This document shows, piece by piece, positions 1 through 57,693 of a stretch of 64,000 bases of DNA (the first letter of the stretch is position 1; each line of letters starts with the position of its first letter). Both the position numbers and the translations under genes were made by a program. Where the stretch lies: the IMG/VR virus record IMGVR_UViG_3300010163_000016, positions 19,772 to 83,771 of that record; one strand, given 5' to 3'. The notes under the pieces are model-generated. The model was not told where the DNA came from. It saw only the letters and a list, made by a program, of their open reading frames with translations, and ran no database searches. The stretch is from a virus (Duplodnaviria > Caudoviricetes).

Positions 1-12
1 GAAAGGGCGGCG

Positions 13-309
13 CTAAATGAGGTCGTCTAAATTTGGAATATACGGCACACCATATTCCAGCCAGGTGTATGTGTGGGAATAATTGTGCTGTGCATAGTCT
101 TCAAAGCCGTAGCCGACATATCTGGTATCGTGATACCGGTTATAGATCGGCCATTCCGGTATGCGTCTACGGTAGTGGGGCGGACCGGCGGAAATCCTGT
201 GCGTATCACATTCTTCTTGAAATGCCAAAAACGTTTCCACCGAAGGAAAGAAAACCAGACACCTGGAAGACGCCAGGAACGTCTCCCAGTCAAATGGCTG
301 TTTTATCAT
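13..309 (-). CDS. Small hypothetical protein ending PNLDDLI
   Basis: GAGGAGGG RBS before the ATG; tight packing with neighbours; shared C-terminal motif. Confidence 0.75.
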   Translation of the reverse strand: MIKQPFDWETFLASSRCLVFFPSVETFLAFQEECDTHRISAGPPHYRRRIPEWPIYNRYHDTRYVGYGFEDYAQHNYSHTYTWLEYGVPYIPNLDDLI

Positions 310-320
310 CGATTCCCTCC

Positions 321-575
321 TCAGATCAAATCGTCCAGATCAGGCGGCACATCATTGTGAAGAGCGAGCTCTTCCAATTCATAATTCCAGCCGTAACCCT
401 CCTCTACCCGCCCAGCGCAGTCATGTAAACGGGGATGATATTCGTCATGCTGAACAGCATATCGACCATCCCTCAGTACACAGAACACGGTTCCAACCAT
501 CCCTATCTGGTGGGGCATTGTCCCATTCCATTCCTTGTTTGCAACACAGATCACCCGGTCGCCGATTGAAAACAT
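321..575 (-). CDS. Small SH3/KOW-like hypothetical protein ending PPDLDDLI
   Basis: AAAGGGG RBS before ATG 575; 'IGDRVICV..G.VGTV..LHDCAGRVEEGYGW' is paralogous to 1292..1576. Confidence 0.75.
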   Translation of the reverse strand: MFSIGDRVICVANKEWNGTMPHQIGMVGTVFCVLRDGRYAVQHDEYHPRLHDCAGRVEEGYGWNYELEELALHNDVPPDLDDLI

Positions 576-595
576 ACTTATCCCCCTTTCTCGTG

Positions 596-853
596 TCAAA
601 TCAAGCCGGAAACATCCGGCGGGTCATCTTTCTCTGCAAGGCCGGCAAACATATCATCTGTCCACCAATACCCAGCTTCTTCAAGGACATACTTACCGCA
701 GGTTGCTGATCGAATCGTTACGATCTGTCCTTTCCAACGAATCATTGGCTCTACAACCGCATCTCCGATATCACAACCATCCATATAATAGACCTTGCGC
801 AAGACAAGGTCATCCCGCACCAGGACGCGGTCGCCGGGTGCATACTTCGCCAT
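596..853 (-). CDS. Small hypothetical protein (GDRVLVR.DL type) ending PPDVSGLI
   Basis: GGAAAGGAAGG RBS; N-terminus resembles a common phage SH3-like family. Confidence 0.75.
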   Translation of the reverse strand: MAKYAPGDRVLVRDDLVLRKVYYMDGCDIGDAVVEPMIRWKGQIVTIRSATCGKYVLEEAGYWWTDDMFAGLAEKDDPPDVSGLI

Positions 854-869
854 AGGAGCCTTCCTTTCC

Positions 870-1094
870 TTAAATCAAATCATCAACGTTGGGCAGGTCG
901 TTTCTGTTGGGAACCTGGATAATGGTCCACACGCCGTGTTTGATATAGTCGGTGATCTCTTGTTCGGAATAGTTTTCATAGCGTTTTCCGGTTGTCATAC
1001 TGACTAGATAACTGCTGCTGCCGTCTATTACATATTCGTAACGAGGTCTGGAAGAGCCATAGTATTCAATAACGGCACGGCGCGGGATGTTCAT
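870..1094 (-). CDS. Small hypothetical protein ending PNVDDLI
   Basis: ATGA start/stop overlap with the upstream ORF; shared tail. Confidence 0.7.
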   Translation of the reverse strand: MNIPRRAVIEYYGSSRPRYEYVIDGSSSYLVSMTTGKRYENYSEQEITDYIKHGVWTIIQVPNRNDLPNVDDLI

Positions 1095-1267
1095 GGCGCC
1101 AGCTCCTCATCTTCTTGGGACGCCAAGATCCTGCGGATGGCTTTCTGCTGTTTGCTTGTCAATGTTGCGAAATCCAGCTCAAAATCGTCGCAGCCCCTCT
1201 TGGGGTATGGCAATCCGTCGTCGCAATCCCAGGAATATCTATACCGGCAATGCTCGCATACAGTCAC
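1091..1267 (-). CDS. 58-aa Cys-containing hypothetical protein (VTVCEHCRYRYSWDC...), absent from the ORF track
   Basis: GAAAGGAGG RBS, GTG start, TGA overlapping the next ATG; read by hand. Confidence 0.7.
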   Translation of the reverse strand: MTVCEHCRYRYSWDCDDGLPYPKRGCDDFELDFATLTSKQQKAIRRILASQEDEELAP

Positions 1268-1291
1268 GATAGACTCCTCCTTTCCATGTCT

Positions 1292-1576
1292 CTATATCAG
1301 GTCGCTCAGGTCGATCCATGGGATTTCTTCTACAGGGGCGACCATATCGTCATCTACATACCACCCATAGCCCCTCTCGCAGTTGCCGTTGCAGCTATGA
1401 AAATTGGACGTGTCGCATTCCACTTCCCAGCAGACGCCAAAGCGGCTGGGCCCTCCCAGCATTCCCATGCTGTCGACCACGGTGCCACAGATCCCAGTGC
1501 GGAGGACTGGATTACCCTCCGGATAATCCACCAGCAGGCAGACGCGGTCGCCTTTTTTATACTGGAATTCGTCCAT
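1292..1576 (-). CDS. Small SH3/KOW-like hypothetical protein ending IDLSDLI
   Basis: AGAGGAGG RBS; paralog of 321..575. Confidence 0.78.
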   Translation of the reverse strand: MDEFQYKKGDRVCLLVDYPEGNPVLRTGICGTVVDSMGMLGGPSRFGVCWEVECDTSNFHSCNGNCERGYGWYVDDDMVAPVEEIPWIDLSDLI

Positions 1577-1591
1577 GGTTTCCTCCTTCTG

Positions 1592-1912
1592 TTAAATCAA
1601 GTCGTCAACATCAATACCAATGTCGGACCCGATTAGGTGAGCAATTTCGTCATACAGGACTGCTGATGATGGCCGGGCAGCCGAAAATTCAATCCCGTCT
1701 GAAAACGAAGAGCACATGACAGTGGGCCAATGACAGCTTTCTTTTATATCGGCTTCCGGGTCTGCAAGCATCTTTTCAGACCAGCCGGAACCCCCATGGG
1801 GAATTCCATGATCCAGCAAAAATTGAATGACAGTGGCGCGGTCGCTGCCATTATCACAGTAGACGGAGATACGGCCTGCGCAGAACGCATCCAGAAATTC
1901 ATCCAAGCTCAC
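1592..1912 (-). CDS. Small hypothetical protein ending IDVDDLI
   Basis: GGAGG RBS before GTG 1912; shared tail. Confidence 0.7.
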   Translation of the reverse strand: MSLDEFLDAFCAGRISVYCDNGSDRATVIQFLLDHGIPHGGSGWSEKMLADPEADIKESCHWPTVMCSSFSDGIEFSAARPSSAVLYDEIAHLIGSDIGIDVDDLI

Positions 1913-2414
1913 GGCAATACGCCTCCCTCTCCTCCTCACTTTCCTCTACCACCCAGATGGGGATTGCCGTCAAACCGAGACGTTTGGCAGCCACATAGGC
2001 GCTGTAGCCGTCCGTCAGCGTATGCCAGAGCTTGGTGACCTCAATTCGGGTTTGAAAGCTCCCACACAGCGCATATTCCTGCTCGCGGGTTCGGATCTTC
2101 CTTCGGCTGGGCGGCGTCATGAGGAATTTTGCCGGCACATCGATGGAACGGGGATTTGCCCAAGCGTGTACCGCCGTCACCGGCCGGAGAGCTCCTGTCG
2201 CCCCAGTGCGGTCTGTCATTTCCTTTACCTTCTCCGGGTCGCAGGAGGCTTGGCCGACTGCGATGGCAAGAGCTTTTCCCTGGCAGGTATCCACCTCCAG
2301 TCTCGTCCCCGGGACAATCATGAAGGCGAGGCTGGCGGGGACGGCAAAACAATAGGTTTTCTTGGCGCGGGGGTGGTGCTTGACCTCCACCACATAGGGG
2401 TATGTCGCGTTCAT
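1899..2414 (-). CDS. Hypothetical phage protein
   Basis: AAGGAGG RBS before ATG 2414; overlaps neighbours. Confidence 0.7.
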   Translation of the reverse strand: MNATYPYVVEVKHHPRAKKTYCFAVPASLAFMIVPGTRLEVDTCQGKALAIAVGQASCDPEKVKEMTDRTGATGALRPVTAVHAWANPRSIDVPAKFLMTPPSRRKIRTREQEYALCGSFQTRIEVTKLWHTLTDGYSAYVAAKRLGLTAIPIWVVEESEEEREAYCRELG

Positions 2415-2626
2415 GACGTTTCCTCCTTGATTTTTCGTTTGACCGCACGCGCCTCCCTGGCGGGCGGCGGCATGGGCATCCATGCCTTGACAGGCACATG
2501 GGTGGCGAATTTCCCTTTATAGTACCGGGAAGAGGTCACGCGGTCCGTCTCTGTTGTGATGATGATTTCCGCGTATTCCTCCGGCGGGTCGGTTTTGGGA
2601 TCCCGCCAGGGCGGGGTGAATGACAT
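2411..2626 (-). CDS. DUF551-like small phage protein
   Basis: 'W..PKTDPPE...II.T...V....Y....F...V.AWMPMP.P' pattern; AAGGAG RBS. Confidence 0.6.
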   Translation of the reverse strand: MSFTPPWRDPKTDPPEEYAEIIITTETDRVTSSRYYKGKFATHVPVKAWMPMPPPAREARAVKRKIKEETS

Positions 2627-2782
2627 GGGGGTACTCCTTTCGTGGGGATTTTTAATGGTGTCGGTGGCGGGGATTGAACCCGCTTGCCTGATGTGGAAGG
2701 CAGGAACAAATTCCAGATTAACATTTTTGAGAAAATGGTCAGAGATTACATCAGGGCACCGACAGATATGGACCATTTTCTC

Positions 2783-2995
2783 TTACAATGCACTTTTCAT
2801 ATGCAGTCCTTCATACGTCATGATTTTCTGCAAAGCTTCTTTCATATCCTCATAGCAATAATAACTGGCGTGGGAGGCAGCATTGTCAGGCGTGTTTTGA
2901 TTGGTTTGGGCCACGACAAAGGGGTGTTTTGCTCCCCGGTCCAGCAGAAGAGAAATTTTTCTGCCAAGACTTTCCCCTTCGCACACAAGTATCAT
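2783..2995 (-). CDS. Hypothetical protein
   Basis: AAGGGG RBS; ATGA coupling with the upstream ORF. Confidence 0.55.
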   Translation of the reverse strand: MILVCEGESLGRKISLLLDRGAKHPFVVAQTNQNTPDNAASHASYYCYEDMKEALQKIMTYEGLHMKSAL

Positions 2996-3282
2996 GGATG
3001 CGCCCCCTTCCGGACAGCGTAATACTGATCCCCGATCTCATCGTAGTAGTAGGTATAGTATTTGCTGAATTCTTCGTCGTTTGTCCGCACCACCTGGTAG
3101 AAGGTATTGGGCTCTGTATGCTCCATATCCTCCGCTTCCTGTTGCGTCAGCAGGAAACAGTAGCCCATTTCCGTATTCCGGACGTACTCCGCACTGTCAT
3201 GCGCGCACTCATACTCAAACCAGGTTCCCTTTTTCACAGCTTCGCTGAACGTATCATGGATCTCTTTTGCAGTCATGCCCAC
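2992..3282 (-). CDS. Hypothetical protein
   Basis: AAGGAGG RBS 8 nt before GTG 3282. Confidence 0.6.
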   Translation of the reverse strand: MGMTAKEIHDTFSEAVKKGTWFEYECAHDSAEYVRNTEMGYCFLLTQQEAEDMEHTEPNTFYQVVRTNDEEFSKYYTYYYDEIGDQYYAVRKGAHP

Positions 3283-3473
3283 TTGATATACCTCCTTGTT
3301 GTTCTGCGGCTGCGGCGGAGCTTCTGCCGGGTCAGCCGGATCAATGTCGTAATGCCGCACAGAATAAGGCCGGCAGCCAGCCAAAGGACAAACAGCGCCG
3401 TGACGAAGACGACTAAATTCGCAGTGGGGCCGAATACCAGCACCGCGTCAAAAGCTCTTAACAGCAGCTCCAT
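3273..3473 (-). CDS. Small membrane protein (hydrophobic stretch plus basic tail)
   Basis: 'LVVFVTALFVLWLAAGLILCGITTLIRL' followed by an Arg-rich C-terminus. Confidence 0.5.
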   Translation of the reverse strand: MELLLRAFDAVLVFGPTANLVVFVTALFVLWLAAGLILCGITTLIRLTRQKLRRSRRTTRRYIKWA

Positions 3474-3474
3474 A

Positions 3475-4026
3475 CTACGCCCCCAGGAGCGCAAGCTCCA
3501 TATCCTGCGCAGCCATCCGGAGCGCAGTTTCTGCATTCACCGGCCTGCGGCGGTCGGCTATCACACGGGCGTCGCGGTATGTATGTTCCAGGTGGCCGGC
3601 GTATTCCATTGGGAATTCCCCAGCGGGCAGCCCCACCCGGTCTTTCAGCACCAGCACCTCGCGGACAGGGTCCTCGCGCAGATCACCGCCGCCCAGAAGC
3701 ATGGCGAACACCTTTCTGTCCTCCTGCTCGGCGGAAGTCAGGGGCCGCTCCGGCAGGCTCAGGAATTCCCTCATGGGATAAACCTTCCCGCAGTGGCGGC
3801 AGGCGGCCTTTGCCCCTCCCCAGGTCGTGGTGAAGGTCCAGCCGCCGCAGGCGCACCGTCTCATTCCCGTGCGGGTGTTCTTATCACCCAGTTTATCCGC
3901 AATATGGACGTGTATCCGCTGCGGTTTCTTTGTGTGGTTCCCGCTGTAGAAGCCTCCCTTTCCCTGCTCGGTGATGGCCTGCATTTCCTGGCTGATGGCA
4001 TAGCAGTGGACGCCGTGTTTGCTCAT
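3475..4026 (-). CDS. Hypothetical protein with CxC/CxxC zinc-ribbon-like motif
   Basis: AGGAG RBS; 'RRCACGG...ACRHCGK'. Confidence 0.65.
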   Translation of the reverse strand: MSKHGVHCYAISQEMQAITEQGKGGFYSGNHTKKPQRIHVHIADKLGDKNTRTGMRRCACGGWTFTTTWGGAKAACRHCGKVYPMREFLSLPERPLTSAEQEDRKVFAMLLGGGDLREDPVREVLVLKDRVGLPAGEFPMEYAGHLEHTYRDARVIADRRRPVNAETALRMAAQDMELALLGA

Positions 4027-4081
4027 GATGTTCTCCTCCTTATCCTGTTTTCCATTTTCTCAAGCGTCCAAAAGGGCGCAA

Positions 4082-4116
4082 AAATGCCCGCCAGCTTGCT
4101 GGGCTGGCGGGCATTT
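4082..4116. terminator. Strong hairpin, probable intrinsic terminator (best U-tract on minus strand)
   Basis: AAATGCCCGCCAGC-loop-GCTGGCGGGCATTT. Confidence 0.7.
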
Positions 4117-4222
4117 CTCTGCTCTTTTGTGATTTTGGCGCAGACTATCCCTGTGAAAAATCAATTTTCCAAATGATTTCACTGGATAGGGCGCGAAGAT
4201 TGCCCCACAGGCGCGGCTTTCC

Positions 4223-4251
4223 TTGACTGCTTAACCAAGACGTGTTATCCT
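4223..4251 (+). promoter_or_regulatory. Sigma-A promoter for the toxin-like peptide
   Basis: TTGACT-17-TATCCT with extended TG. Confidence 0.6.
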
Positions 4252-4336
4252 ATCGGTGTTCTTAACTTACCCCTGGAGGAACGAAGCGGACGCTTGACAG
4301 CTGAGCTGAAACTTCGGCCCAGAAAGGGGGACACCT

Positions 4337-4444
4337 GTGGAAACTATCTTGCTTTCCATCACCTGCAGCTTAATCGCTGGGGTCATCTTGGAGCTCGGTA
4401 AATTTGTCATTCGGCATTTCTGCCACTTCCGGAGAGTCCGTTAA
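4337..4444 (+). CDS. Putative type I toxin-like membrane peptide, 35 aa (METILLSITCSLIAGVILELGKFVIRHFCHFRRVR)
   Basis: AGAAAGGGGG RBS, GTG start, one hydrophobic helix and a basic tail as in Fst/Ldr-type toxins; downstream hairpin at about 4447-4490. Confidence 0.55.
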   Translation: METILLSITCSLIAGVILELGKFVIRHFCHFRRVR

Positions 4445-4574
4445 GAAAGCGCCGGGTCGCGTCACCAGATACCGTGACGGGCCCGGTTTGCGCATGTGGG
4501 GCATGGTATGAAAAGGGTTTTCCCTTGACATTGATGTTGGAGAGGGGCGCCGCTCATGCAGCACCCCCTCTCCG

Positions 4575-4603
4575 TTGACATTTCCTTCACAGACTGGTAA
4601 GAT
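4575..4603 (+). promoter_or_regulatory. Near-consensus sigma-A promoter
   Basis: TTGACA-17-TAAGAT. Confidence 0.7.
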
Positions 4604-4924
4604 GGATTTGCCCAACTGGGGCGGGAAAGGAGACTGTCATTTGAAACAGTTTTTGAACTCGCCTGTCTCTGAAGTAATGCCGATGCGTGGGCGAACACAG
4701 CCTTGACGCTGTGACGCGGGACCTGACCGCTGAAGTGATGGCTCCTTGGGTAAGAGAGAACGCTCACATCACGTTCATGTTGATGGCGGGGAAAGCGTGC
4801 ATATGCCAGTTGCTCAATTCCGGGCTGACGCCCAACCGGAATAAAAGGAGTCCTATTTTGTGAGCAGCGGAATAGGCGTCGCCATCTTCATTGCGCCAAG
4901 GATCAGGGAAAACAAGCCAGGGAG

Positions 4925-4957
4925 AAAGCGCCGGTTGATGTGGCCGGCGTTTTCTTT
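4925..4957 (+). terminator. Intrinsic terminator
   Basis: GCGCCGG-loop-CCGGCGT followed by TTTTCTTT. Confidence 0.6.
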
Positions 4958-4991
4958 ATGCCACGCCGTGCCCAGTATGTATTGTGGACAC

Positions 4992-5020
4992 AAAAGGCCC
5001 CCGATTAGTTCGGGGGCCTT
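4992..5020 (-). terminator. Intrinsic terminator downstream of the repressor gene
   Basis: AAGGCCCCCGA-loop-TCGGGGGCCTT with a U-tract on the minus strand. Confidence 0.65.
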
Positions 5021-5037
5021 AGTCTATCCAAAATAGT

Positions 5038-5970
5038 TTACTTTTCACCAATAATTTGCAGGTATGCGTCGTACAAAAGCATATTGTCCTTATGATTTCG
5101 CTTTGATTTTCCCAGGCAGAGGCGGACCTTGTCAGCGTTCTTCACAGCACGAACATCTACACCGGCCTGGTCCATTTGATGGAGACGATAGAAATTTCCG
5201 GATCGCTGGACGTTGGTATAATTGATAACTTTGCTGTTTGGTAATTGCTCGTGGAGCTTGTCATTAAAAATTGTGATCCAGGCTCGCATGGATTTTGTAG
5301 AAATAGGCTGTCCTACTTTTTTGCTGTCCTTGTCTACCATGCGCTTGATAAAAAACCCCAAATCATCCGCATACACTGGATAAGTCTGGTTTTTCGTTCG
5401 CTCGGAAGTTTTTATGGTACTGTATTCCTGGAGCAATTTCCGAATGCAATCGGGCATATCTGGCGCTATGACAGAGCCATTTGCACTATAGATTTTCCCT
5501 GCCTTGACATCTACACACTCCGTCGGCAGGCGGATAGCGTCATCCAAATCTACACCAAGCCACGCCATACACAGAGCTGGTATAACTGACTGGGCAGTTT
5601 CCACATGATAAACAACGGCAATGTTCTGCAGAAGTTCCTCAGGGGTTTTGATGATCGTTGGCGCAAAGTATTTCGCGTACGGGAACATATTTACTTTATA
5701 TTCCCGGATGTGATGGCCGGAGAGATTGTGCAGAATGCAGTACCAGTCGGCATAGGAAGCCACTAATCCCAATCTAGTGCGAACTACATCAGGCTCCATA
5801 AATCCAAGCAGTTCAAAAAATTGTTGCAGTTCGTTCACAGAAAAACATGCAAGGTCGTGGCAGACTGATTTCTCAATAGTCTCAGACGCTAGAAACAGTC
5901 CTATTACTCTGCTGACAACACTATTCGAGCATTCCGTTAGATACTTTTCCTTGATTTCCGCATTGAACAT
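5038..5970 (-). CDS. MrpR/YopR-like phage master repressor (degenerate tyrosine-recombinase fold)
   Basis: 'MFNAEIKEKYL...E....DLACFS..EL' N-terminus and 'YTNVQRSG' in place of HxLR; SPbeta-like context. Confidence 0.65.
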   Translation of the reverse strand: MFNAEIKEKYLTECSNSVVSRVIGLFLASETIEKSVCHDLACFSVNELQQFFELLGFMEPDVVRTRLGLVASYADWYCILHNLSGHHIREYKVNMFPYAKYFAPTIIKTPEELLQNIAVVYHVETAQSVIPALCMAWLGVDLDDAIRLPTECVDVKAGKIYSANGSVIAPDMPDCIRKLLQEYSTIKTSERTKNQTYPVYADDLGFFIKRMVDKDSKKVGQPISTKSMRAWITIFNDKLHEQLPNSKVINYTNVQRSGNFYRLHQMDQAGVDVRAVKNADKVRLCLGKSKRNHKDNMLLYDAYLQIIGEK

Positions 5971-6099
5971 AGAGCACCCCCGCTGATACATACTCTACGC
6001 CTATTTTACTTTTTGCGGTTGCAAAAGTCAAGTTTTGGCGTATGTATTTGCGGGAGGGCTAGTTAGTAGTATGAGCGGGGGGGCGATGTGCGGGCGCAG

Positions 6100-6134
6100 A
6101 AAACCCCGCTGTGTTATAGAGCACAGCGGGGTTA
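6100..6134 (-). terminator. Terminator of the TA operon
   Basis: AACCCCGCTGTG-loop-CACAGCGGGGTT. Confidence 0.65.
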
Positions 6135-6138
6135 TTAC

Positions 6139-6417
6139 TCACTTTCCGAACAAATCTGCATGGGTGCCTGTTCTGGATGCAACCAAGATTAGTTTTTCGC
6201 CGTCGATTGCATAAATCAACAACCAATCAGGCAAGATGTGACATTCACGAAATCCGACATAATCCCCTGTTAGGGCATGATCCCTGTGTTTACCGGCAAG
6301 TTGCTTTCCTGAACAGAGATCGTCTAACACAGATTGCAACAGAGCAAGATCATAACCGCGTTTCTTAATAAGCTTATAATCCTTGCGGAATCTTCCGGTT
6401 TCAACAAGAGTCAACAC
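6139..6417 (-). CDS. yafQ: YafQ-family (RelE superfamily) mRNA interferase toxin
   Basis: 'F.KDYKL..KRG...','HRDHALTGDYVGFRECHILPDWLLIY...L.L..RTGTH.DLF'. Confidence 0.9.
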   Translation of the reverse strand: MLTLVETGRFRKDYKLIKKRGYDLALLQSVLDDLCSGKQLAGKHRDHALTGDYVGFRECHILPDWLLIYAIDGEKLILVASRTGTHADLFGK

Positions 6418-6710
6418 GGTTCATCCTCCGTTTCTGCGTCCAATTCCGCAAAAAGCTCACTGGCAGAATGATACTGCTTCGCAGGTAATTTTCCACTCAT
6501 GATTTGCCTTGCCTCTTGAATGGCGGCTTCTGTTTCTGCATTATAACGCGGATATTTAACATCAAACGGCAGACCGCCCTCCATCAAGGATTTTCGCAAA
6601 AAAATTGTAATGGCATCACTAATCGTAATGCCAAAGCTCGCAAAAAGCTTTTCTGCACCGAGTTTCGTTTCTGCGTCAATGCGCACATTGATACTAGCAG
6701 ATTTTGCCAT
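6411..6710 (-). CDS. dinJ: RelB/DinJ-family antitoxin
   Basis: 'INVRID.ETK..AE.LF..FG...SDAI..FL......GGLPF...PRYN.ET..AI.E'; overlaps the toxin gene. Confidence 0.88.
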   Translation of the reverse strand: MAKSASINVRIDAETKLGAEKLFASFGITISDAITIFLRKSLMEGGLPFDVKYPRYNAETEAAIQEARQIMSGKLPAKQYHSASELFAELDAETEDEPC

Positions 6711-6743
6711 AGTGGTTCACCTCCCTTGTCTATGCTTTGTTAT

Positions 6744-6773
6744 AGTATATCACATTTGTAATGATATTGTCAA
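6744..6773 (-). promoter_or_regulatory. Sigma-A promoter of the TA operon
   Basis: TTGACA-18-TATACT with extended TG. Confidence 0.65.
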
Positions 6774-6825
6774 CACAACGCAAGACAAACAGATGATAAT
6801 ATGGGCTAAGGGTTCTCTCGTACCA

Positions 6826-7740
6826 TTACGCTACGGTTTCCTCGCTGGCGGGCTCCTCAGCTATCACGGTCACTTCCCCGCCTTCGGCGGTCTCAATATA
6901 TTCCTGAGGCTGGGTGCCACCCACTGTCGGATTCTGCTGGCCGGACTTGTCCTTTTCCTGGGTGTTCTGGAACGCATATGCCAAGGAGTGCCGCCGGGTG
7001 TAGATCGCGCGGAACAGGAATTCCTCCATGCTGGCGGCGTTGCGGACGGCGAACTGTCCCGCCTCATCGGTAGTGGACTTCTTCGCAGAGATGAGCGCAG
7101 ATGCAAAATACCGCACATCGGGTTTCAGCATTTTTGGGGCCACCTCGTCAGGGAGAATAGCCGTAACAACTTCATTTAGCAGGGCTACCAGTTTCGTCAT
7201 GGACACACTGCCTCCACGGTCAGGCTGCCAGATGGCACCCATCTTCTTCCGCTGTTCTAAAAGCTTCGCAGACATGGCATTACGGACCACGTACTGACGC
7301 CCGGCAGCATCCGCACGGTTCACCACTACGTACTCGCAGAAAACGCGAAGCATCGTAGCCCAATTTTCCATACGGGCCAGATGCCCATTAGAATCGGAGG
7401 CATCATGAAACGCCTTATCCATGGCGGCAAAGCTCACGCGCTTTGTAGCAGCGTTCTCGTCATCCGGGGTCCGCAGGGAATATTTACCGGTTTCTTTGTC
7501 CTGGTCCAGCCTGTACACTAGAACAAACTGATGATCGATGTATTCCGGCCACATAGCGGCGGGATCCATGTTTAACAGCTCCTCAATACGCTCCTGCGAG
7601 ATCTGATCGTTGACCGCTTCTACAGCCTTCTTTACGTTCTCCAGTTCAACGCTGGAATCAGCTCCCGCCTTAACGGCGGCGTTCAGTACCTTTACGGCCT
7701 CCTGCATGGTTAACACTTTCTTCTCCATAACGCTACTCAT
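6826..7740 (-). CDS. Hypothetical protein, first gene after the structured leader
   Basis: GGAGGT RBS before ATG 7740; 304 aa. Confidence 0.75.
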   Translation of the reverse strand: MSSVMEKKVLTMQEAVKVLNAAVKAGADSSVELENVKKAVEAVNDQISQERIEELLNMDPAAMWPEYIDHQFVLVYRLDQDKETGKYSLRTPDDENAATKRVSFAAMDKAFHDASDSNGHLARMENWATMLRVFCEYVVVNRADAAGRQYVVRNAMSAKLLEQRKKMGAIWQPDRGGSVSMTKLVALLNEVVTAILPDEVAPKMLKPDVRYFASALISAKKSTTDEAGQFAVRNAASMEEFLFRAIYTRRHSLAYAFQNTQEKDKSGQQNPTVGGTQPQEYIETAEGGEVTVIAEEPASEETVA

Positions 7741-7769
7741 AATAGTTACCTCCAAATTCTCAAAAATAT

Positions 7770-8510
7770 TTTTTTGTGGTTATACGCTCAAGCGGACGCA
7801 CTTTCCGGGTGGAAAATGCGCCCTATCAGCGTATAACGTGCCGTATCTCATAACTACGGCACGTTTGTTAACATTATGTTTTGTGTGCAGTGTTCGCGCA
7901 TCATGCACAATTCACCGCACCTTACCCCGCCGAACCGTCTAAATTCGGCTGATAAGTCAGCCGTGCAGTCGTGGCAATCAGTCCCGCATTTACGGCTTGA
8001 CGCTCTTGCACGTGGGCCACTTGTTTTCCGGCAGGTATCACCCTACCCCGGGGCGGCGGCATCCGCCCGGCTTGCTACTTTCAGCGGTTCAGATTTACAG
8101 GTTGTAAGGCTGTAAACTTCCCCTAAATGCGCCGCTAGGGTATGTGTAGCTTGCGCCACTACACGCCAGCCCCGAACGCAAGTTATAAATCACGCTTTAC
8201 CAGGCCCGCACCAAATCCGACGTTACTAGATTTCACGCCCCTATACCTTGCGGTATAGGCCCCGTAACGGGTGGCAGGTGTTCCTGGCACTACATGGACT
8301 TGTCAAGGTGCGCACCGCCTGACCGGTTATCAAGCGGGCCTGTAATTTACGCCCTACAGGTAAGGCACGGTGCTGACTGCTACAGCTTGCGCCGTAGCCG
8401 CTAGGGTTGCTGTCAGTCCTGTGATACGGATTTTACTACTTGTACTCTTGACACTCGCCGCCGTGGGCCACGCTCTCGCTGCCCGTGTTCGGCGGCTCCT
8501 GTCTGGTACT
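7770..8510 (-). ncRNA. Candidate large structured ncRNA or leader (~750 nt)
   Basis: No credible ORF; several perfect hairpins, three closed by GCAA tetraloops on the minus strand; begins just downstream of a consensus promoter. Confidence 0.5.
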
Positions 8511-8516
8511 GTAACA

Positions 8517-8545
8517 ATACTATCACGGATTTTACCACTTGTCAA
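8517..8545 (-). promoter_or_regulatory. Leftward sigma-A promoter (copy 1)
   Basis: TTGACA-17-TAGTAT. Confidence 0.75.
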
Positions 8546-8645
8546 CCCTAAATTTCGGCCTTTGAAGTTTTGGCGTCCCGCCTCTCCCGTCTCCCGGTGA
8601 GCGGTGCCCGCCTCTGTCCGCGGCCTCTTTGTTTGGTACGGTCAT

Positions 8646-8674
8646 AGGATATCACGGATTTTACCACTTGTCAA
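8646..8674 (-). promoter_or_regulatory. Leftward sigma-A promoter (copy 2)
   Basis: TTGACA-17-TATCCT; spacer identical to copy 1. Confidence 0.7.
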
Positions 8675-9310
8675 CCCCCATTTTCAATTTTTTTTGAAAT
8701 TTTTTTGAAATTTTTTTCGTGTGTCCGTTTTTGGGCATTATAATGTATAGGGGGATGTTTGATCTGTTTGGGTGTATTGTTTTCTGGTTTTTTAACGATG
8801 TTTCTGATGTTTTGATGTTTTAGTTTTACTGTATTTCTTGTTCTATATTCCAGTTTTGCTGTATTAGGTCTACATGTGTAGACCGACTATACTATATATC
8901 ACATAGTATCATCAGATGAGGTAGTCTATGTGGTATACTATCATTTAACCACATTGGGTAATGGGGGGTATTTTAGACTTATTAGTACATAATTCCATTG
9001 ATTTTCCGCCTAGTTGTCATATTTCTTCATTCAGAAAAGCAAAAATTTGAGATGCTACAAAACGACCCCCTATTTGATTGTATATCTTATTTTGGAACCT
9101 TCTCAGCATACCGAAAACTAACCTTTCCATCCACAAATCGTTAGAGGATCAAGCAGCATCGAACCGCACTTATTTAATGCCGCAATCTGGAGAGTATTTT
9201 AATATAAAGATAATCTTACAAATTGAAGAATTCTTGTATATTTTCGATTGAAACATCTGCATTTTTAATCTGTTTTATTAGATTATTCTAATATTTTTTG
9301 GTATTTTGTC

Positions 9311-9339
9311 TTGACAAATTGCAGCATTTGTGTTATCAT
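9311..9339 (+). promoter_or_regulatory. Rightward sigma-A promoter of the recombinase gene
   Basis: TTGACA-17-TATCAT with extended TG. Confidence 0.7.
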
Positions 9340-9394
9340 ATATTTGAGAAAAAGGTTAGAGAGCAGGGACACGGCAGCCAAAGGAGGGTAGCCC

Positions 9395-10165
9395 ATGTCC
9401 GTGATCCAGCTCCAGCAATTTATACAGCCAGTTCCCCATCAATTCAGGAGACCACGCAACATCACAATAGTCAATTCCATATTCAATGACACGACCCCGG
9501 AACCCAAGAGGCACCCGGCTGATCCGCTGAAGGATAGTAACGATATCAAGCGGATATGCGATTTTCTGGTAGAGCATCAACGCTACCGTGATAATCTGCT
9601 GTTTACAGCTGGCGTCAATCTTGGTTTTCGGTGCGGCGACCTGCTTCAGCTCAAGTGGGGTCATCTGCTTTACCCAGATGGCAGCTACAGAGCTTCGGTC
9701 ACACTGCAGGAGCAGAAGACCAGCAAATGCAGAACCGCCTACTATTGCCAAGCGATATGGGATGCAGCCGATCTTTACCTTGAGAGGCTGGAGCGAGACT
9801 ATGGTGGCGTGGACCTGAATTCTTTTGTTTTTAAGGGGGAATCGAACCGTAATAACAGTGACAAGCCGCTGACCGTTTACTCAGTGGAACGCATCCTGAA
9901 GTCCGTTATTAACGACGAACTCCACATCGACATCAACGCCAGCACCCACTGCCTGAGAAAGACATTCGGCTACCATGTCGTAATGACTGCCCGCGACCGC
10001 ACCCGTGCTGTGGAGCTGCTTCAGAAAATCTTCGGACACTCCTCCCCTTCCATCACGCTTGCCTATATCGGCATCACCAACGAAGAAATCCGGAGTGTCT
10101 ATGAGAATCTGAACCTTGGATTGCTGAACCCGGCACAGTGCTGCGGCGTGGAGATGGCTGGTTGA
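9395..10165 (+). CDS. Tyrosine recombinase (XerC-like, catalytic domain only)
   Basis: Complete R..K..HxxR..H..Y set: 'GFRCGDL','EQKTSK','HCLRKTFG','GHSS...TLAYIG'. Confidence 0.9.
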   Translation: MSVIQLQQFIQPVPHQFRRPRNITIVNSIFNDTTPEPKRHPADPLKDSNDIKRICDFLVEHQRYRDNLLFTAGVNLGFRCGDLLQLKWGHLLYPDGSYRASVTLQEQKTSKCRTAYYCQAIWDAADLYLERLERDYGGVDLNSFVFKGESNRNNSDKPLTVYSVERILKSVINDELHIDINASTHCLRKTFGYHVVMTARDRTRAVELLQKIFGHSSPSITLAYIGITNEEIRSVYENLNLGLLNPAQCCGVEMAG

Positions 10166-10840
10166 GGAGGGCACGTTTGGAGATAGAAGTCAACAGAAAA
10201 AAGAAAGAACCGGCGCCAGCCTCCGACTAGATGTGCGGTGACGGGAGAAGGGCCAGCTACGTCCTCCTCCCTACCGCAGAATCTGCCGAGAAGAAACATC
10301 CCTCCCAAGGAACATGACGGTCTGCTCCTGCACCAATAAAAATGGAGGTGTACAAGTAAGCGAAGCGCCTGCGGCGAGCCTGCCTGTAGACAAAGATGGA
10401 TGTAGGGGTGCTGGTCGGCAGCTGGTCCCGCATGAACCTTCCTCCCTGCTGAACGGCAGGCGAGCTATGATATATGTGGGAAGAACTATGATGGAGCGGT
10501 CCTTGAGACTGGGCGCCCTGCTGGACGGGCACGCGCACCTTGAAAAATGAATATTGTATTCCACAAAGTCCCCAAGCAAATCACAGCGACGGTGAAGAGG
10601 CTATGAGATCAAGAGAAGCCTCCAATGATATGCGTCACTAACCGCCGGCCATCCGCCCTGCGGACGGGTTCGTCAGTTAGTGAACGATATCAGAACAATG
10701 TTTGCTTCTTTTCTAAAGGAACGTCAGTCAATCCCTTGCGCCCCAAGGGTTTGCGCTTACGTTTGTGACCTCGATGGTCACAAATCCATTTTTCGGCCCC
10801 ATTTTAGCTCCTCGTCGCCAAATTTTCAGAAAGGAACTGA

Positions 10841-11164
10841 ATGAGAAAAGCAACACAAACAAACGAATATATCTCTGGGCTCGGACTGGCCCATGCCGGA
10901 GGCTACTTCAGCGAGGCACATTACCGCGCTATGCTTCGCAACATGGCCCCTGGCTGTGACGTAGAAGCCAGCTCTACAAAGCAGGGCGGCACCATCACCC
11001 GCATCATCCGAAACATCTATGGCGCTCCTGTGTGCGTCCAGGTAGCGACCGGAGAAGGGCATAAACAGATCGACTTCATATCTGTGGATCGCATCGACTG
11101 TTTCGAGCCGACCCGTGAGTGCGCCGGTTATTACGACGACCTGGCCGCCGGGATGTATGATTAG
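10841..11164 (+). CDS. Hypothetical protein
   Basis: AAAGGA RBS; 107 aa. Confidence 0.6.
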   Translation: MRKATQTNEYISGLGLAHAGGYFSEAHYRAMLRNMAPGCDVEASSTKQGGTITRIIRNIYGAPVCVQVATGEGHKQIDFISVDRIDCFEPTRECAGYYDDLAAGMYD

Positions 11165-11175
11165 GGGGTGGCGCT

Positions 11176-12468
11176 TTGATCCATGTCTGCGACGCTATTA
11201 TGGGCAGCGGCAAGACCCAGGCAGCCATGGCGTTCATGAACGCACACCCTCGTCAAAAGTTCATTTATATTTCCCCCTACAAGACGGATGGCCCCAACGT
11301 GGCGGCCGCCTGCCCTTCCCTACACTTTGCGCTTCCCGCCAACATCCCTGCTTATAGCTTCTCCAAGACAGAGCACTGCCGAAAGCTGCTGGAACGGGGA
11401 AAGAATATTGCCTGTACGCACGAACTGTTCAAAAGATATAACCGTGATGTCCTTGACATCATTCGGGAGCAAGGGTACACACTTATCATAGACGAAGAAG
11501 TCTCCGTCCTGGAGGAATGCGATCTGCATCCAGACGACTTGGAGCTTTTGAAAGCGGGCGGGTATGTCACAGACGCCCCCGGGGGCTGCATTCAACCTAC
11601 AGAGCGCCGGTATTACGGGAACGCCTTCAAGGAGTTATTCCGGGTCATGGAAAGCCGTAGTCTGAACCGCTGCGGTGAGGATAGCGAGGAAAAATATTTT
11701 TACTGGCAGCTCCCTCCCGATCTGCTGCTTGCGTTCGAAGACGTCTATATCCTGACTTTTATGTTTTATTGCCAGGACATCAGATATATGCTCGACATTG
11801 GCGGGATCACATATCAGCACATCTATATTCGCCGGACAGGCGGCGGCAGGTATGCCTTCTCAGACGCTCCGAGCTATCTGCCGCCCTATGTGGCCCATCT
11901 CAGCGAAATGATCGACATTTACGAGGGCGAAAACCTTAACGCCGTTGGACGCCCACAGTTCCCGAGGGAATGTCCACTCTCCATGAATTGGTTTTCCAGT
12001 AAATCGGACCGTGCGGACGAGCTGCGAAAAAACCTGATCAATTACTTTGCCCATTACACAGATGGCGCTGACAGCAGCCGGAAAATGTGGGGAACATATA
12101 CCGATGGGCCGCGCAATCTTCTGAGCAGAAAAGGCTACGCCGGAGGCTTCGTGACCTTCAATATGAGAGGCAGTAACGAGTATCGAAATCGGGATTGGCT
12201 GGCCTACTGTGTCAATATTTACATGTCTCCCCGCATCGTGACCTATTACAGCCGGTTTGGTATCGAGCCAAACGGAGACGCTCGGGCTTTGTCCACGATG
12301 ATACAGTGGATTTGGCGCAGTGCCATCAGAGACGGCCAAAAGATACACATCTACATTCCCAGCGAGAGAATGCGCGGACTCCTCAAGGCATGGATAGCCG
12401 AGATGGAGTCTATGGCTCGCTCTGGCTCCTGGTGCAAGACGGAGGCGTTAGAGAATATAGCCTCTTAA
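11176..12468 (+). CDS. SF2 helicase-like protein
   Basis: Walker A 'DAIMGSGKT', Walker B 'LIIDEE', motif VI-like 'QWIWRSAIR'. Confidence 0.75.
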   Translation: MIHVCDAIMGSGKTQAAMAFMNAHPRQKFIYISPYKTDGPNVAAACPSLHFALPANIPAYSFSKTEHCRKLLERGKNIACTHELFKRYNRDVLDIIREQGYTLIIDEEVSVLEECDLHPDDLELLKAGGYVTDAPGGCIQPTERRYYGNAFKELFRVMESRSLNRCGEDSEEKYFYWQLPPDLLLAFEDVYILTFMFYCQDIRYMLDIGGITYQHIYIRRTGGGRYAFSDAPSYLPPYVAHLSEMIDIYEGENLNAVGRPQFPRECPLSMNWFSSKSDRADELRKNLINYFAHYTDGADSSRKMWGTYTDGPRNLLSRKGYAGGFVTFNMRGSNEYRNRDWLAYCVNIYMSPRIVTYYSRFGIEPNGDARALSTMIQWIWRSAIRDGQKIHIYIPSERMRGLLKAWIAEMESMARSGSWCKTEALENIAS

Positions 12469-12620
12469 TCTCCCTTTATCGCGCTATTCCCAATGGTTTA
12501 CATACATCATGTCATCGAACAAAAATGATCCTTTCTACCCGCCGGTGGGACGGCGGGCAGCACAGCCTTGCGGAGCGCGGGCGGCCATTGGCATCAACTA
12601 TGAAAGGATCACCATACATA

Positions 12621-12836
12621 ATGACCAACATCCCTTATATCTGCTGCGCCGACTGCATCTGGCGCGGCAAGTGTCCTGAACAGGACGCCGTCGGCGATCT
12701 GGACCAGTTCACCCTCACCGGAGTGATCTGTGACGATTATTCCCCGGCGGACGAGAGAGACCGCACAGACGACTACGAACAGGATTTAAAGGAAAGAGCG
12801 GCAGCCTACGACCCACTCCTGCGGGAGTTCCAGTGA
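12621..12836 (+). CDS. Small Cys-rich hypothetical protein
   Basis: AAAGGA RBS; 'CCADCIWRGKC...C'. Confidence 0.55.
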   Translation: MTNIPYICCADCIWRGKCPEQDAVGDLDQFTLTGVICDDYSPADERDRTDDYEQDLKERAAAYDPLLREFQ

Positions 12837-12854
12837 ATCTGGCTGGGAGAGGGG

Positions 12855-14529: not shown

Positions 14530-15475
14530 AAACTATCTTGCTGTACCGGCTCGAAAGGGTCGGATATAAAACTCCGTGAACCCGTAATTGCGGGGTGTCT
14601 GCCCTATTAGCAGGCTAACGGTGAAGGCTTCATTGATAATACCGTGCTAAGATCAAACACGAGGTAAATCTAATTAGGAGGATTTACTGCAATCGAAGAA
14701 TTTAAAGAAATAAATTACCAGGGCATCCATTACAGAGTAGGAAACGAAGGTACCATATACAGAAATGGAAATCCAGCAAAAATCATTGTATCACCAGATG
14801 GTTATCACAAAGTATCTACCAAAACCAGCAATATCGGAGTGCATAGATTGGTAGCTATGTGTTGGGTAGAAAATGATGACCCTGGTACTAAAACCGAAGT
14901 AAACCATAAGGACTATTGCCGAACCAATAATCGTGCCAGTAATTTGGAATGGCTGTCTCATGCGGACAATATTCGGTATTCAGCTGGCAGGAAAAATATC
15001 CGTGGAGAAAGAAACCCGAATTATGGTAATAAAGCTTTGAGCAGGTTTTACCGCGATCACCATGATGTTGCAATCATAAAGCAGGGACGCCCAGGACTTC
15101 AAAATGGGCGATGCAGATCAATATCGGTATATAAGGACGGTTGTTTACTTCACACATTTGATATGGTGATTGATTGCTGCCGCTATCTCCAAAAAGAATA
15201 TGGAGTGTCTGCAAATCTGATATCCATTCGATGTCAGATTGACAGAAGCATCAGAGATGGAAAACCATATAAAGGGCTTACCTTTCAAAAATAAGTACTT
15301 TGTGTTTGATAAAAGTGTAACGACTATCGAACGGATAGCCGGCTGGGCTTCGGGTCAGCCGGTGAGGAACCAAGTAGAGTAGCTGTTGGGTGAAACTCCC
15401 GGCAGCGAAGCGCGGAGCACCTAAGTCCGAGAGGATATGGTGAAGAGATAGTCTGCCTCCGCTCCGGCGGAGACG
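14530..15475 (+). ncRNA. Group I intron (946 nt, IA2-like with extra P7 stems) in the RNAP gene
   Basis: P1 UACAGU(14524-29)/GCUGUA(14540-45) with U.G at the splice site; P3 CUCCGUG(14572-78)/CGCGGAG(15411-17); P7 GACUA(15322-26)/UAGUC(15449-53); terminal G15475. Confidence 0.9.
14692..15294 (+). CDS. Intron-encoded HNH homing endonuclease (NUMOD4/HNH_3-like)
   Basis: 'VHRLVA..W.......EVNHKD..RTNN..SNLEW....DNI'; the frame is open back to an ATC placed 10 nt after AGGAGG. Confidence 0.85.
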   Translation: MEEFKEINYQGIHYRVGNEGTIYRNGNPAKIIVSPDGYHKVSTKTSNIGVHRLVAMCWVENDDPGTKTEVNHKDYCRTNNRASNLEWLSHADNIRYSAGRKNIRGERNPNYGNKALSRFYRDHHDVAIIKQGRPGLQNGRCRSISVYKDGCLLHTFDMVIDCCRYLQKEYGVSANLISIRCQIDRSIRDGKPYKGLTFQK

Positions 15476-20692: not shown

Positions 20693-20702
20693 ATGCAGGT
20701 CC

Positions 20703-53329: not shown

Positions 53330-57693
<4,364 letters not shown>

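What the first reader, a model, noticed from the sequence alone, without database searches (positions are those of the whole stretch)
13..1912. Array of small proteins sharing a C-terminal acidic-hydrophobic tag ([LV][DS][DG]LI-stop)
Seen in sequence: six of seven consecutive small ORFs end in PNLDDLI, PDLDDLI, PDVSGLI, PNVDDLI, IDLSDLI and IDVDDLI, although their bodies are mostly unrelated. The DNA is not a repeat: Leu is CTC/TTG/CTG, Ile is ATT/ATC/ATA, and all three stop codons are used. This points to selection on the peptide rather than on a recombination site. Inference: a modular free-carboxylate docking tag that routes many phage effectors to one partner. Candidate roles are a phage or host hub, an SSB-tail-like (DDDxPF) mimic, a protease degron or adaptor site, or a capsid-loading signal analogous to encapsulin cargo peptides. 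The array may continue beyond the left edge of the window.
Basis: partly seen in the sequence, partly recalled or inferred. Interest (0 to 1): 0.82.

Follow-up and report, generated by a model that had tools for sequence, protein, structure and literature searches.

The report
Shared C-terminal tag on phage proteins
At least 13 small proteins of this gut-type prophage, from many unrelated families, end in the same short acidic-hydrophobic peptide; related phages each use their own version, so it looks like an address tag read by one partner that is still unidentified.

Summary
Six of seven minus-strand ORFs in window 13-1939 end in phi-[DES]-[DG]-L-I. Seven more lie left of the window in the same 83.8-kb contig. 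That makes 13 observed against 0.09 expected, all on one strand, with only synonymous codon variation in the last two tail codons.

Three of the six in-window bodies are distant KOW/SH3-like paralogues. The others have no detectable similarity to each other.

The arrays flank a conserved Ubl / E2-like / JAB / E1 / retron-RT module. The E1 has relatives on 294 IMG/VR stretches and in a Ruminiclostridium MAG. Many of the sampled relatives have the same layout but their own tail: TIDDL[IL], LEE[IV]L, xSLL, ECxCESLL, FEDELMxLLGG or SFYDFxGG. The same body family carries different tails in different genomes, and different families share one tail within a genome. The tail therefore tracks the genome, not the protein.

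My best reading is a flexible docking peptide read by one fast-evolving, probably phage-encoded partner, which I could not identify. The Ubl module is the best positional lead, but four phage records, one rated complete, lack E1 and keep tagged ORFs.

This scan has noted similar shared tails on other phage DNA.

The parts
13..309 (-). Tagged small ORF, 98 aa, ends YIPNLDDLI. Last gene of this array; a GC-rich hairpin-like inverted repeat (CGCCGCCC...GGGCGGCG) follows its stop. No family match for the body.
321..599 (-). Tagged small ORF, 92 aa, KOW/SH3-like body (GDRV...GYGW), ends VPPDLDDLI.
   Evidence: weak SH3_15; phrog_22041. Three homologues P0004, P0007 and P0011 are 63-86% identical to it and keep DLDDLI.
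596..853 (-). Tagged small ORF, 85 aa, KOW/SH3-like body (WTDDMF subfamily), ends DPPDVSGLI. Overlaps the next gene by 4 nt.
   Evidence: (phrog_7488). Homologue P0009 is 52% identical and ends PDVSDLI.
870..1094 (-). Tagged small ORF, 74 aa, body without detectable relatives, ends DLPNVDDLI.
1091..1267 (-). Untagged 58-aa Cys-rich ORF inside the array, ends EDEELAP.
1292..1576 (-). Tagged small ORF, 94 aa, KOW/SH3-like barrel plus flexible tail, ends PWIDLSDLI.
   Evidence: phrog_22041, E 3e-11; AF2: the 10-residue blocks covering the barrel average pLDDT 77-91, the last two blocks, 81-94, average 64 and 56.
1592..1939 (-). Tagged small ORF, 115 aa, body without family match, ends IGIDVDDLI. 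First gene of this array, downstream of the ParB-like gene.
1899..2483 (-). ParB-like 194-aa protein bounding the array on its upstream side. It carries no tag.
   Evidence: weak phrog_8071 match

Best explanation
The peptide is a portable C-terminal docking tag. Its core is phi-x-x-phi-phi preceded by acidic residues; here it reads [P/phi]-[ND]-[LVI]-[DES]-[DG]-L-I-COOH. It hangs on a short flexible linker behind small, otherwise different domains: KOW/SH3-like barrels, a ferredoxin-like domain and several orphan bodies. The genes form two arrays on either side of a Ubl / E2-like / JAB / E1 / retron-RT module in the leftward accessory operon of a large temperate Clostridia-type phage. All tagged proteins of one phage are read through this peptide by one common partner, which gathers or routes them as a group. 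I therefore infer that it is phage-encoded rather than a conserved host hub. Shown: the tag exists, it is selected at the peptide level, it evolves in concert, it is modelled with low confidence in isolation, and it is syntenic with the Ubl module. Inferred: binding to one reader. My ranking, as shares of all probability: a component of the adjacent Ubl machine about 0.2; a conserved host hub or protease about 0.12; a virion component about 0.12; the SH3-like domains themselves about 0.1.
For: (1) Enrichment: 13 C-terminal occurrences against 0.086 expected, and no internal enrichment. (2) Peptide-level selection: all variation in the Leu and Ile codons and the stop codons is synonymous, and the Shine-Dalgarno sequence of the next gene lies after the stop in most cases. 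(3) Orthologues keep the tail while bodies diverge. Eleven further small relatives of the SH3-like bodies in a 1.84-billion-protein scan, 28-57% identical to the ORF at 1292-1576, end in phi-[DES]-DLI, and one more ends VSDLL. (4) Concerted evolution. In 80 E1-anchored and 62 SH3-anchored IMG/VR loci, each lineage has its own tail: L045/L051 TIDDL[IL]; L018 LEE[IV]L; L024/L025 xSLL on 19-21 of 45-50 ORFs; L055-L087 ECxCESLL; L046 FEDELMxLLGG; the Ruminiclostridium MAG SF[YF]D[FY]xGG. After trimming tails, 169 representative tagged proteins fall into 81 sequence components. The two SH3-like components contain members carrying most of these tail types. (5) A permissive tail pattern hits 713 of 5121 coding-strand ORFs against 169 of 6019 control ORFs on the opposite strand. 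(6) The tail is modelled with low confidence (mean pLDDT 64 and 56 in the last two blocks) behind a confident barrel. (7) No body column of the SH3-like family co-varies with tail class, whereas the tails are nearly invariant within a class. This fits an external reader.
Against: No reader was identified and no binding was tested or modelled. The tail-coding DNA sits directly upstream of, or overlaps, the ribosome-binding site of the next gene. In some lineages part of the 'tail' is simply that site translated: GGAGG gives GG, and GGAGGA gives E-E or E-D. So part of the cross-lineage pattern has an RNA-level cause. The retrieval of relatives was anchored on E1 or on one SH3-like subfamily, so frequencies are biased and many loci are near-duplicates. 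There are 44 E1 clusters at 85% identity, and one cluster holds 65 loci. Host identity is unknown, so a host-encoded reader that differs between host lineages is not excluded.
Confidence: 0.6

Rival explanations
1. The reader is the neighbouring ubiquitin-like conjugation machine (E2-like protein, JAB peptidase, E1 or the conserved 133-aa protein). The tagged proteins would be interchangeable substrate receptors or substrates, docked by their tail so that the Ubl is conjugated to them or to whatever host protein each body binds.
For: Arrays flank the module on both sides in this phage (contig 10668-13892 | RT | E1 | JAB | E2-like | Ubl | 133-aa | 19784-21710). The same order is seen in the Ruminiclostridium MAG and in IMG/VR relatives. 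56 of 62 loci anchored on an SH3-like tagged protein have E1, JAB and RT within 10 kb.
Against: Records G003, G004 (141 kb, CheckV 100% complete), G005 and G006 have no E1. Three of them also lack the 133-aa protein. The loci I read from three of them (L122 in G003, L131 in G005, L134 in G006) keep 3-6 ORFs ending ...C[ED/A]SLL; the positive control G007 was found. About 20 of 44 E1 clusters have no SH3-like array protein within 10 kb, and the tally of tagged ORFs there is at background level. The Ubl itself ends K-x-D-[GSN]-[GA], unlike the tails. The GG of 'long' tails is translated ribosome-binding site, not a Ubl-like end. Synteny may only reflect common descent.
Confidence: 0.2
2. The KOW/SH3-like domains are themselves the readers. 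As CAP-Gly domains bind EEY/F-COOH tails, each barrel would bind the tail of another array protein. The array products would then assemble head-to-tail into one multi-protein particle or network.
For: SH3-like proteins were present in the arrays of every tail lineage I listed in full, and most of them carry a tail: 550 of 673 by pattern, and many of the rest on inspection. Loci without SH3-like proteins have tagged ORFs only at background level. The modelled barrel resembles peptide-tail readers: CAP-Gly (Foldseek E 7e-3 to 2e-2, TM 0.5-0.65; VIA Z 7.7), the Mind bomb REP domain, Tudor and SH3.
Against: The fold match is generic: KOW, PsaE and ribosomal proteins score equally, and Z is at most 8.7, which is the usual level for chance arrangements. 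There is no GKNDG-like motif. The tail is not confidently modelled in the monomer. No body column co-varies with tail class and paralogues are only 25-35% identical.
Confidence: 0.1
3. The tail is a virion-loading signal, analogous to encapsulin cargo-loading peptides or the T4 capsid-targeting sequence. A phage structural protein would bind it, so that the small proteins are packaged and injected with the DNA as ready-made counter-defence factors.
For: A phage-encoded, lineage-specific reader is what concerted tails predict. This reading is independent of the Ubl module, which fits G004. One tagged body (contig 11889-12275) resembles, by predicted structure (TM 0.62-0.67), the DUF1281_C/Api92-like domain found in polyvalent proteins of phages and conjugative elements.
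Against: The genes lie in the leftward accessory operon on the strand opposite the structural genes, not with the late genes. There is no sequence resemblance to known cargo peptides. No virion proteomics exists and no modelling was possible.
Confidence: 0.12
4. The tail is read by a conserved host machine. It would be a C-terminal degron or adaptor-docking peptide for a host AAA+ protease (ClpXP, ClpCP or Lon) or another host hub, giving the accessory proteins a common lifetime or delivering their bound targets for degradation.
For: The architecture of domain, flexible linker and short C-terminal hydrophobic peptide is that of SspB-type adaptors and of HslU tails. The HslU octapeptide EDLSRFIL (PMC4106860) shares the form acidic-L-x-x-phi-phi. 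A non-polar C-terminus is typical of C-terminal degrons (my knowledge of the ssrA tag).
Against: The tails differ chemically between related phages (DDLI, ECxCESLL, SFYDF), whereas docking sites of conserved host hubs are conserved over phyla. HslU (TIGR00390) was not found above its cut-off in the two host genomes available; the hits are ClpX-like. The tails do not end in Ala-Ala. In some lineages the terminus is buried behind GG plus an extension.
Confidence: 0.12
5. The shared ending is not a protein signal. It would be a by-product of a conserved nucleic-acid element at gene junctions: a translation-initiation or coupling cassette for the next gene, or a recombination linker used to shuffle gene cassettes.
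For: The tail-coding DNA always abuts the next gene's ribosome-binding site. In L018 and L024 the E-E/E-D positions are encoded by GGAGGA, 5-6 nt before an overlapping ATGA. In L046 and the MAG the 'GG' is GGAGG.
Against: In this phage the ribosome-binding site mostly lies after the stop. The last gene of the array (13-309) has no downstream gene yet keeps the tail. All variation in the Leu and Ile codons is synonymous and all three stop codons are used. Across lineages the physico-chemical pattern is kept while the nucleotides differ. The motif is always in frame and at the end of the upstream ORF.
Confidence: 0.05

Closest known systems
T4 sliding-clamp clients: C-terminal hydrophobic-acidic tails of gp43, gp33 and gp55 docking on gp45
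   Same: Several unrelated phage proteins share a short acidic-hydrophobic C-terminal peptide that docks them on one phage-encoded hub.
   Different: Here there are 13-21 small accessory proteins of unknown function rather than replication and transcription proteins. I noted no clamp gene among the proteins I scanned. The tail differs between related phages.
T7 gp2.5 and gp4 acidic C-terminal tails binding T7 DNA polymerase, and bacterial SSB DDD[IL]PF tails (my knowledge)
   Same: A flexible acidic tail ending in a hydrophobic residue, used as a docking handle.
   Different: There is no terminal Phe and no Pro-Phe. The bodies modelled or classified here are KOW/SH3-like barrels or a ferredoxin-like domain, not OB-fold SSBs. 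The logic is many-to-one rather than one tail with many partners.
CAP-Gly domains reading EEY/F-COOH tails (EB1, CLIP-170, alpha-tubulin; PDB 2hl5, 3tq7, 3e2u matched)
   Same: An SH3-like barrel together with acidic-hydrophobic C-terminal tails. CLIP-170 carries both reader and tail, as the SH3-like array proteins would.
   Different: Only generic fold similarity (TM 0.5-0.65, Z about 7.7). There is no GKNDG motif, the terminus is aliphatic rather than aromatic, and binding was not tested.
HslU C-terminal tail (EDLSRFIL) inserting into HslV (PMC4106860)
   Same: Same peptide form: acidic, then L-x-x-phi-phi, at a free C-terminus.
   Different: HslU was not found above the family cut-off in the two host genomes available. 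One activator tail is known there, not a family of tagged proteins.
Encapsulin cargo-loading peptides and bacterial microcompartment encapsulation peptides (my knowledge)
   Same: A short terminal peptide on a flexible linker that addresses unrelated cargo proteins to one shell protein. Encapsulin shells share the HK97 fold with phage capsids.
   Different: There is no sequence match to known cargo peptides. The genes are not in the structural module. Packaging was not tested.
Other shared-tail findings of this scan on other phage DNA (e1-173140, e1-831089, e1-4772764, e1-541601, e1-137769)
   Different: Those are different phage groups with different tails, mostly on DNA-handling proteins. 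Here the arrays consist of small SH3-like and orphan proteins flanking a Ubl/retron module.

Membership tests
KOW/SH3-like small beta-barrel (bodies of 321-599, 596-853, 1292-1576) | Five-stranded barrel with an N-terminal G-D-x-V (KOW-like) strand | tested here: met
   AF2 mean pLDDT 81.8 with five strands. VIA Z 7-8.7 to KOW, CAP-Gly, Tudor and YorP. GDRV is invariant in alignments A2 and A3. Pfam hits fall below the curated cut-offs.
Bacterial beta-clamp-binding motif | Q-L-[SD]-L-F or Q-x-x-L-x-x-F consensus | tested here: not met
   No Gln and no terminal Phe in any of the 13 tails.
SSB C-terminal tail | An acidic run ending in [IL]-P-F-COOH on an OB-fold ssDNA-binding protein | tested here: not met
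   The tails end D-L-I. The one body modelled is a KOW/SH3-like barrel. No SSB family hit in Pfam or PHROGs.
CAP-Gly / EEY-F system | Reader domain with the GKNDG motif | tested here: not met
   The conserved motif in the barrel is E-x-G-Y-G-W, not GKNDG.
   Foldseek E 7e-3 to 2e-2, TM 0.5-0.65, VIA Z 7.7. KOW, PsaE and Tudor domains score the same.
CAP-Gly / EEY-F system | Ligand ends in [ED]-[ED]-[YF]-COOH and binds the domain | not testable with these tools
Ubiquitin-like modifier precursor | Beta-grasp body ending in G-G, with or without a short extension, activated by E1 | tested here: not met
   The modelled body is KOW/SH3-like. The tails of this phage have no GG. The GG of long-form tails in relatives is the translated GGAGG of the next gene. 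The module's own Ubl ends differently...ANGGRK here and K-x-D-[GSN]-[GA] in relatives.
ssrA-like ClpXP degron | C-terminal L-A-A or A-A-COOH | tested here: not met
   The tails end L-I, L-L, I-L or V-L.
HslU-type tail docking on HslV | Host encodes HslUV | tested here: inconclusive
   TIGR00390 gave only sub-threshold, ClpX-like hits in G001 (an incomplete MAG) and G002. The host of this phage is unknown.
Encapsulin-type cargo-loading peptide | Tail binds the interior of an HK97-fold shell; cargo is found inside particles | not testable with these tools
   No complex prediction and no proteomics were available.

The most novel reading that the evidence does not exclude
The tails dock the array proteins on the phage's own ubiquitin-like conjugation machine. 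The arrays would then be an exchangeable library of substrate receptors, a phage counterpart of F-box or BC-box adaptor families, each directing Ubl conjugation to a different host defence or housekeeping protein. The tail and its docking site would co-evolve in each phage lineage.
Probability: 0.1. Interest if true: 0.9.

Novelty: new variant of a known kind. Interest (0 to 1): 0.62.

Why it matters
Shared docking tails are textbook for a few phage replisome proteins. Here a fifth or more of the small accessory genes of a large family of gut-type temperate phages carries one genome-specific tag. The E1 of the neighbouring module has relatives on 294 IMG/VR stretches. If one reader exists, finding it would assign a common pathway to dozens of orphan gene families at once. 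It would also give a simple rule, the C-terminal tag, for recognising members in metagenomes. It might further reveal what the adjacent phage-encoded Ubl and retron module acts on. The result also carries a practical caution: part of such 'tails' can be the translated ribosome-binding site of the next gene.

Tried and rejected
- Single-protein searches of IMG/VR with the 115-aa tagged ORF, the ParB-like protein and the RT found nothing.
- A word-indexed homologue search of ORF 1292-1576 found only the ORF itself.
- tblastn against GenBank phages and megablast of window 1-12000 found nothing.
- Alignment A3 was too diverse for a locus scan, and A4 found nothing in IMG/VR.
The planned test was the SH3-like barrel without its tail against a non-SH3 tagged protein. 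No binding prediction exists for any candidate reader.
- Double-glycine leader or Ubl-precursor reading of the 'LLGG+extension' tails: rejected, because the GG is the GGAGG ribosome-binding site of the next gene.
- HslV docking: HslU was not found above its cut-off in G001 or G002.
- Host mimicry in the Ruminiclostridium MAG: the F[YF]D[FY]xGG pattern hit only six sites. Four are in the arrays already read, on contigs 14 and 207. The other two, on contigs 228 and 269, I did not inspect.
- Co-variation of SH3-like body columns with tail class: no column stood out.
- Identity of module proteins against tail type: this phage is about equally distant from all lineages, so there was no signal.
- Fold search of the conserved 133-aa neighbour: no PDB match.
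- Literature searches found no description of these tails.
- The promoter and terminator scan was uninformative.
Full report
**Observation.**
One search confirms the seven consecutive minus-strand ORFs between window 13 and 1939. Six end in IPNLDDLI, PPDLDDLI, PPDVSGLI, LPNVDDLI, WIDLSDLI and GIDVDDLI. The 58-aa ORF 1091-1267 does not carry the tail.

The window is bases 19772-83771 of a single 83,771-bp virus record. A scan of all 899 six-frame ORFs of 30 aa or more in that contig finds 13 that end in [DES][DG]LI, against 0.086 expected. All 13 are on the minus strand between contig 545 and 21710. The same pattern occurs internally only once, against 0.8 expected.

The array therefore continues left of the window, at contig 852-1157, 10668-10925, 11659-11892, 11889-12275, 12288-12632, 12823-13134 and a frame-shifted copy at 545-658. 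Weaker variants are VLELI at 12640-12813 and LEDVL at 13131-13892.

Codon use in the tails varies only synonymously. Leu is CTG/TTG/TTA/CTC, Ile is ATT/ATC/ATA, and all three stop codons are used.

**Context.**
The element is a tailed prophage:
- a weak match of the 680-aa protein to the T4-type terminase N-terminal domain, just below Pfam's cut-off, a portal protein (phrog_2739) and a tape-measure protein;
- two tyrosine recombinases and an MrpR-like protein;
- a YonO-like RNA polymerase split by an HNH gene.

SLH and GH53 host-like genes lie at its right end.

The tagged genes belong to a roughly 27-kb leftward block of small genes. They form two arrays on either side of a module. Its order along the minus strand is: array B (contig 19784-21710), a 133-aa protein, an 85-aa Ubl ending ...NGGRK, a 476-aa E2-like protein, a JAB peptidase (HGHSH motif), a ThiF/E1, a retron-type RT, then array A (10668-13892).

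**Bodies.**
BLASTP finds almost no similarity among the tagged proteins beyond the tail. Alignment shows five of them as distant paralogues with the pattern GDRV...GYGW...P-x-phi-D-DLI.

AF2 models ORF 1292-1576 as a five-stranded barrel. The 10-residue blocks covering the barrel average pLDDT 77-91. The last two blocks, residues 81-94, average 64 and 56.

The fold is a generic KOW/SH3-like barrel. Foldseek's best E-value is 3e-3. VIA-align gives Z 7-8.7 to the Hpy99I N-terminal domain, Spt5/NusG KOW, CAP-Gly, Tudor, Mind bomb REP and the SPbeta protein YorP. That level of Z is common for chance arrangements.

One non-SH3 body (contig 11889-12275) matches phrog_6306. By predicted structure it resembles the DUF1281_C/Api92-like ferredoxin-like domain. 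The others have no family.

**Relatives.**
A profile search of 1.84 billion representatives gave 198 hits. Among the small hits, eleven from other assemblies end in phi-[DES]-DLI and one ends VSDLL, although their bodies are only 28-57% identical to ORF 1292-1576. More distant hits end in a longer related peptide: acidic residues, then phi-x-x-phi-phi-G.

A genome scan found arrays in a Ruminiclostridium MAG with another shared ending, [KT]SF[YF]D[FY]xGG. There the 133-aa protein, Ubl, E2-like protein, JAB, E1 and RT lie in the same order.

An E1 alignment retrieved 294 IMG/VR matches, of which 80 loci were kept. An SH3-like alignment retrieved 62 more loci.

The module is flanked by arrays whose tail is lineage-specific:
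- TIDDL[IL] in L045 and L051;
- LEE[IV]L in L018;
- xSLL in L024 and L025, on 19-21 of 45-50 ORFs;
- ECxCESLL in L055-L087;
- xCKSLL, FxSLL and xALL in other lineages;
- FEDELMxLLGG in L046;
- [DE]EE[LF]xxLLG[MFI] in L008, L009 and L013.

A permissive tail pattern hits 713 of 5121 coding-strand ORFs, against 169 of 6019 opposite-strand control ORFs.

With tails trimmed, 169 representatives fall into 81 sequence components. The two SH3-like components hold members carrying most of these tail types, including this phage's DVSGLI and DLDDLI.

The tail thus follows the genome, not the protein family. That is the signature of a shared, co-evolving reader.

**RNA-level caveat.**
The tail-coding DNA abuts the next gene's ribosome-binding site. 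In L046 and the MAG, the 'GG' is the translated GGAGG. In overlapping genes of L018 and L024, the E-E/E-D is encoded by GGAGGA, 5-6 nt before ATGA. So the GG plus extension is not part of the signal, and a free carboxylate is not universally kept.

In this phage the site mostly lies after the stop. The terminal gene 13-309 keeps the tail without a downstream gene. All variation in the last two tail codons is synonymous. I therefore reject a purely nucleic-acid explanation for this window.

**Who reads it?**

*Ubl module.* The module is the best positional lead, since 56 of 62 SH3-anchored loci have E1, JAB and RT within 10 kb. Two findings weaken it:
- Whole-record searches found no E1 in four records. 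One of these, G004, is 141 kb and rated 100% complete. A positive control was found. The loci I read from three of them (L122 in G003, L131 in G005, L134 in G006) keep 3-6 tagged ORFs.
- About 20 of 44 E1 clusters have no SH3-like array protein within 10 kb, and the tally of tagged ORFs there is at background level.

*SH3-like barrels.* SH3-like proteins were present in the arrays of every tail lineage I listed in full, and their fold class includes peptide-tail readers such as CAP-Gly. Against this, no body column co-varies with tail class, and the monomer model does not place the tail with confidence.

*Conserved host hubs.* These fit poorly with tails as different as DDLI, ECxCESLL and SFYDF. 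HslU was not found above its cut-off in the two host genomes at hand.

*Virion loading.* This remains possible but untested.

The planned complex prediction could not be run. Contexts of the metagenomic homologues could not be read. Expression data could not be obtained.

**Comparison and novelty.**
The principle of many proteins sharing one C-terminal handle for one hub is known from T4 clamp clients, T7 acidic tails, CAP-Gly/EEY-F, adaptor tails and cargo peptides. The HslU tail EDLSRFIL (PMC4106860) has the same peptide form. None of these families' defining features is met here.

I found no paper describing these tails. Earlier notes of this scan report comparable genome-specific tails in other phage groups, and the same tails from the adjacent window of this genome.

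I class the finding as a new variant of a known kind. It is a tag on arrays of small accessory proteins, evolving in concert across a large phage family, with an unidentified reader.

Noticed in passing
window 12855-14531, 14839-15294, 15502-16473 (+): A YonO-like single-subunit RNA polymerase (phrog_8308; Pfam RdRP) is split in two. Profile positions 8-548 and 559-845 lie in separate ORFs, with an HNH endonuclease gene between them. This could be an intron, an intein-less split gene or an insertion.
   Followed up: partly
L001 545-837 (contig coordinates, left of the window): ORF 550-837 ends ...SMFLI, but the overlapping frame 545-658 ends PLVDVSDLI. A frameshift, either a sequencing error or a decaying gene, seems to separate a body from its tag.
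   Followed up: no
L001 19269-19670 (-), next to the window's left edge: The conserved 133-aa protein between array and Ubl gives a confident AF2 model (pLDDT 91.6: a beta-sheet plus two long helices) with no Foldseek match in the PDB. It is syntenic in all lineages examined and is retained in G005, which has lost E2-like, JAB, E1 and RT.
   Followed up: partly
L046, L018, L024 and G001 loci: C-terminal 'GG' or 'EE/ED' residues of many array proteins are encoded by the Shine-Dalgarno sequence (GGAGG or GGAGGA) of the next, closely packed or overlapping gene. This is a general source of spurious 'shared tails'.
   Followed up: yes
L001 about 16508-17389 (-): The JAB/JAMM peptidase (HGHSHVN...SATD motif) is missed by a longest-ORF gene call, because shadow ORFs overlap it. 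Its likely start is the MKNFTLHQ... methionine.
   Followed up: partly
L131 (G005) 6330-7419: A relative has an apparent deletion. The 133-aa protein and the Ubl are kept, a 223-aa ORF follows, and E1 (whole-record search) and E2-like, JAB and RT (within the 20-kb locus) were not found. Six ECxCESLL-tagged ORFs remain.
   Followed up: partly
window 53330-57547 and 60345-63176 (-): Large SLH-domain proteins, one with a GH53 galactanase domain, lie at the right end. They look like host flank of a Gram-positive, S-layer-bearing Clostridia-type host.
   Followed up: no
L055-L087 arrays: The tail of this lineage contains an invariant Cys-x-Cys (N-E-C-x-C-E-S-L-L), which suggests metal- or disulfide-mediated docking in that lineage.
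   Followed up: no
one search hits P0005-P0020: The same SH3-like domain also occurs as 2-12 tandem repeats in proteins of 280-1500 aa, a Mind-bomb-like repeat architecture. Their origin was not examined.
   Followed up: no
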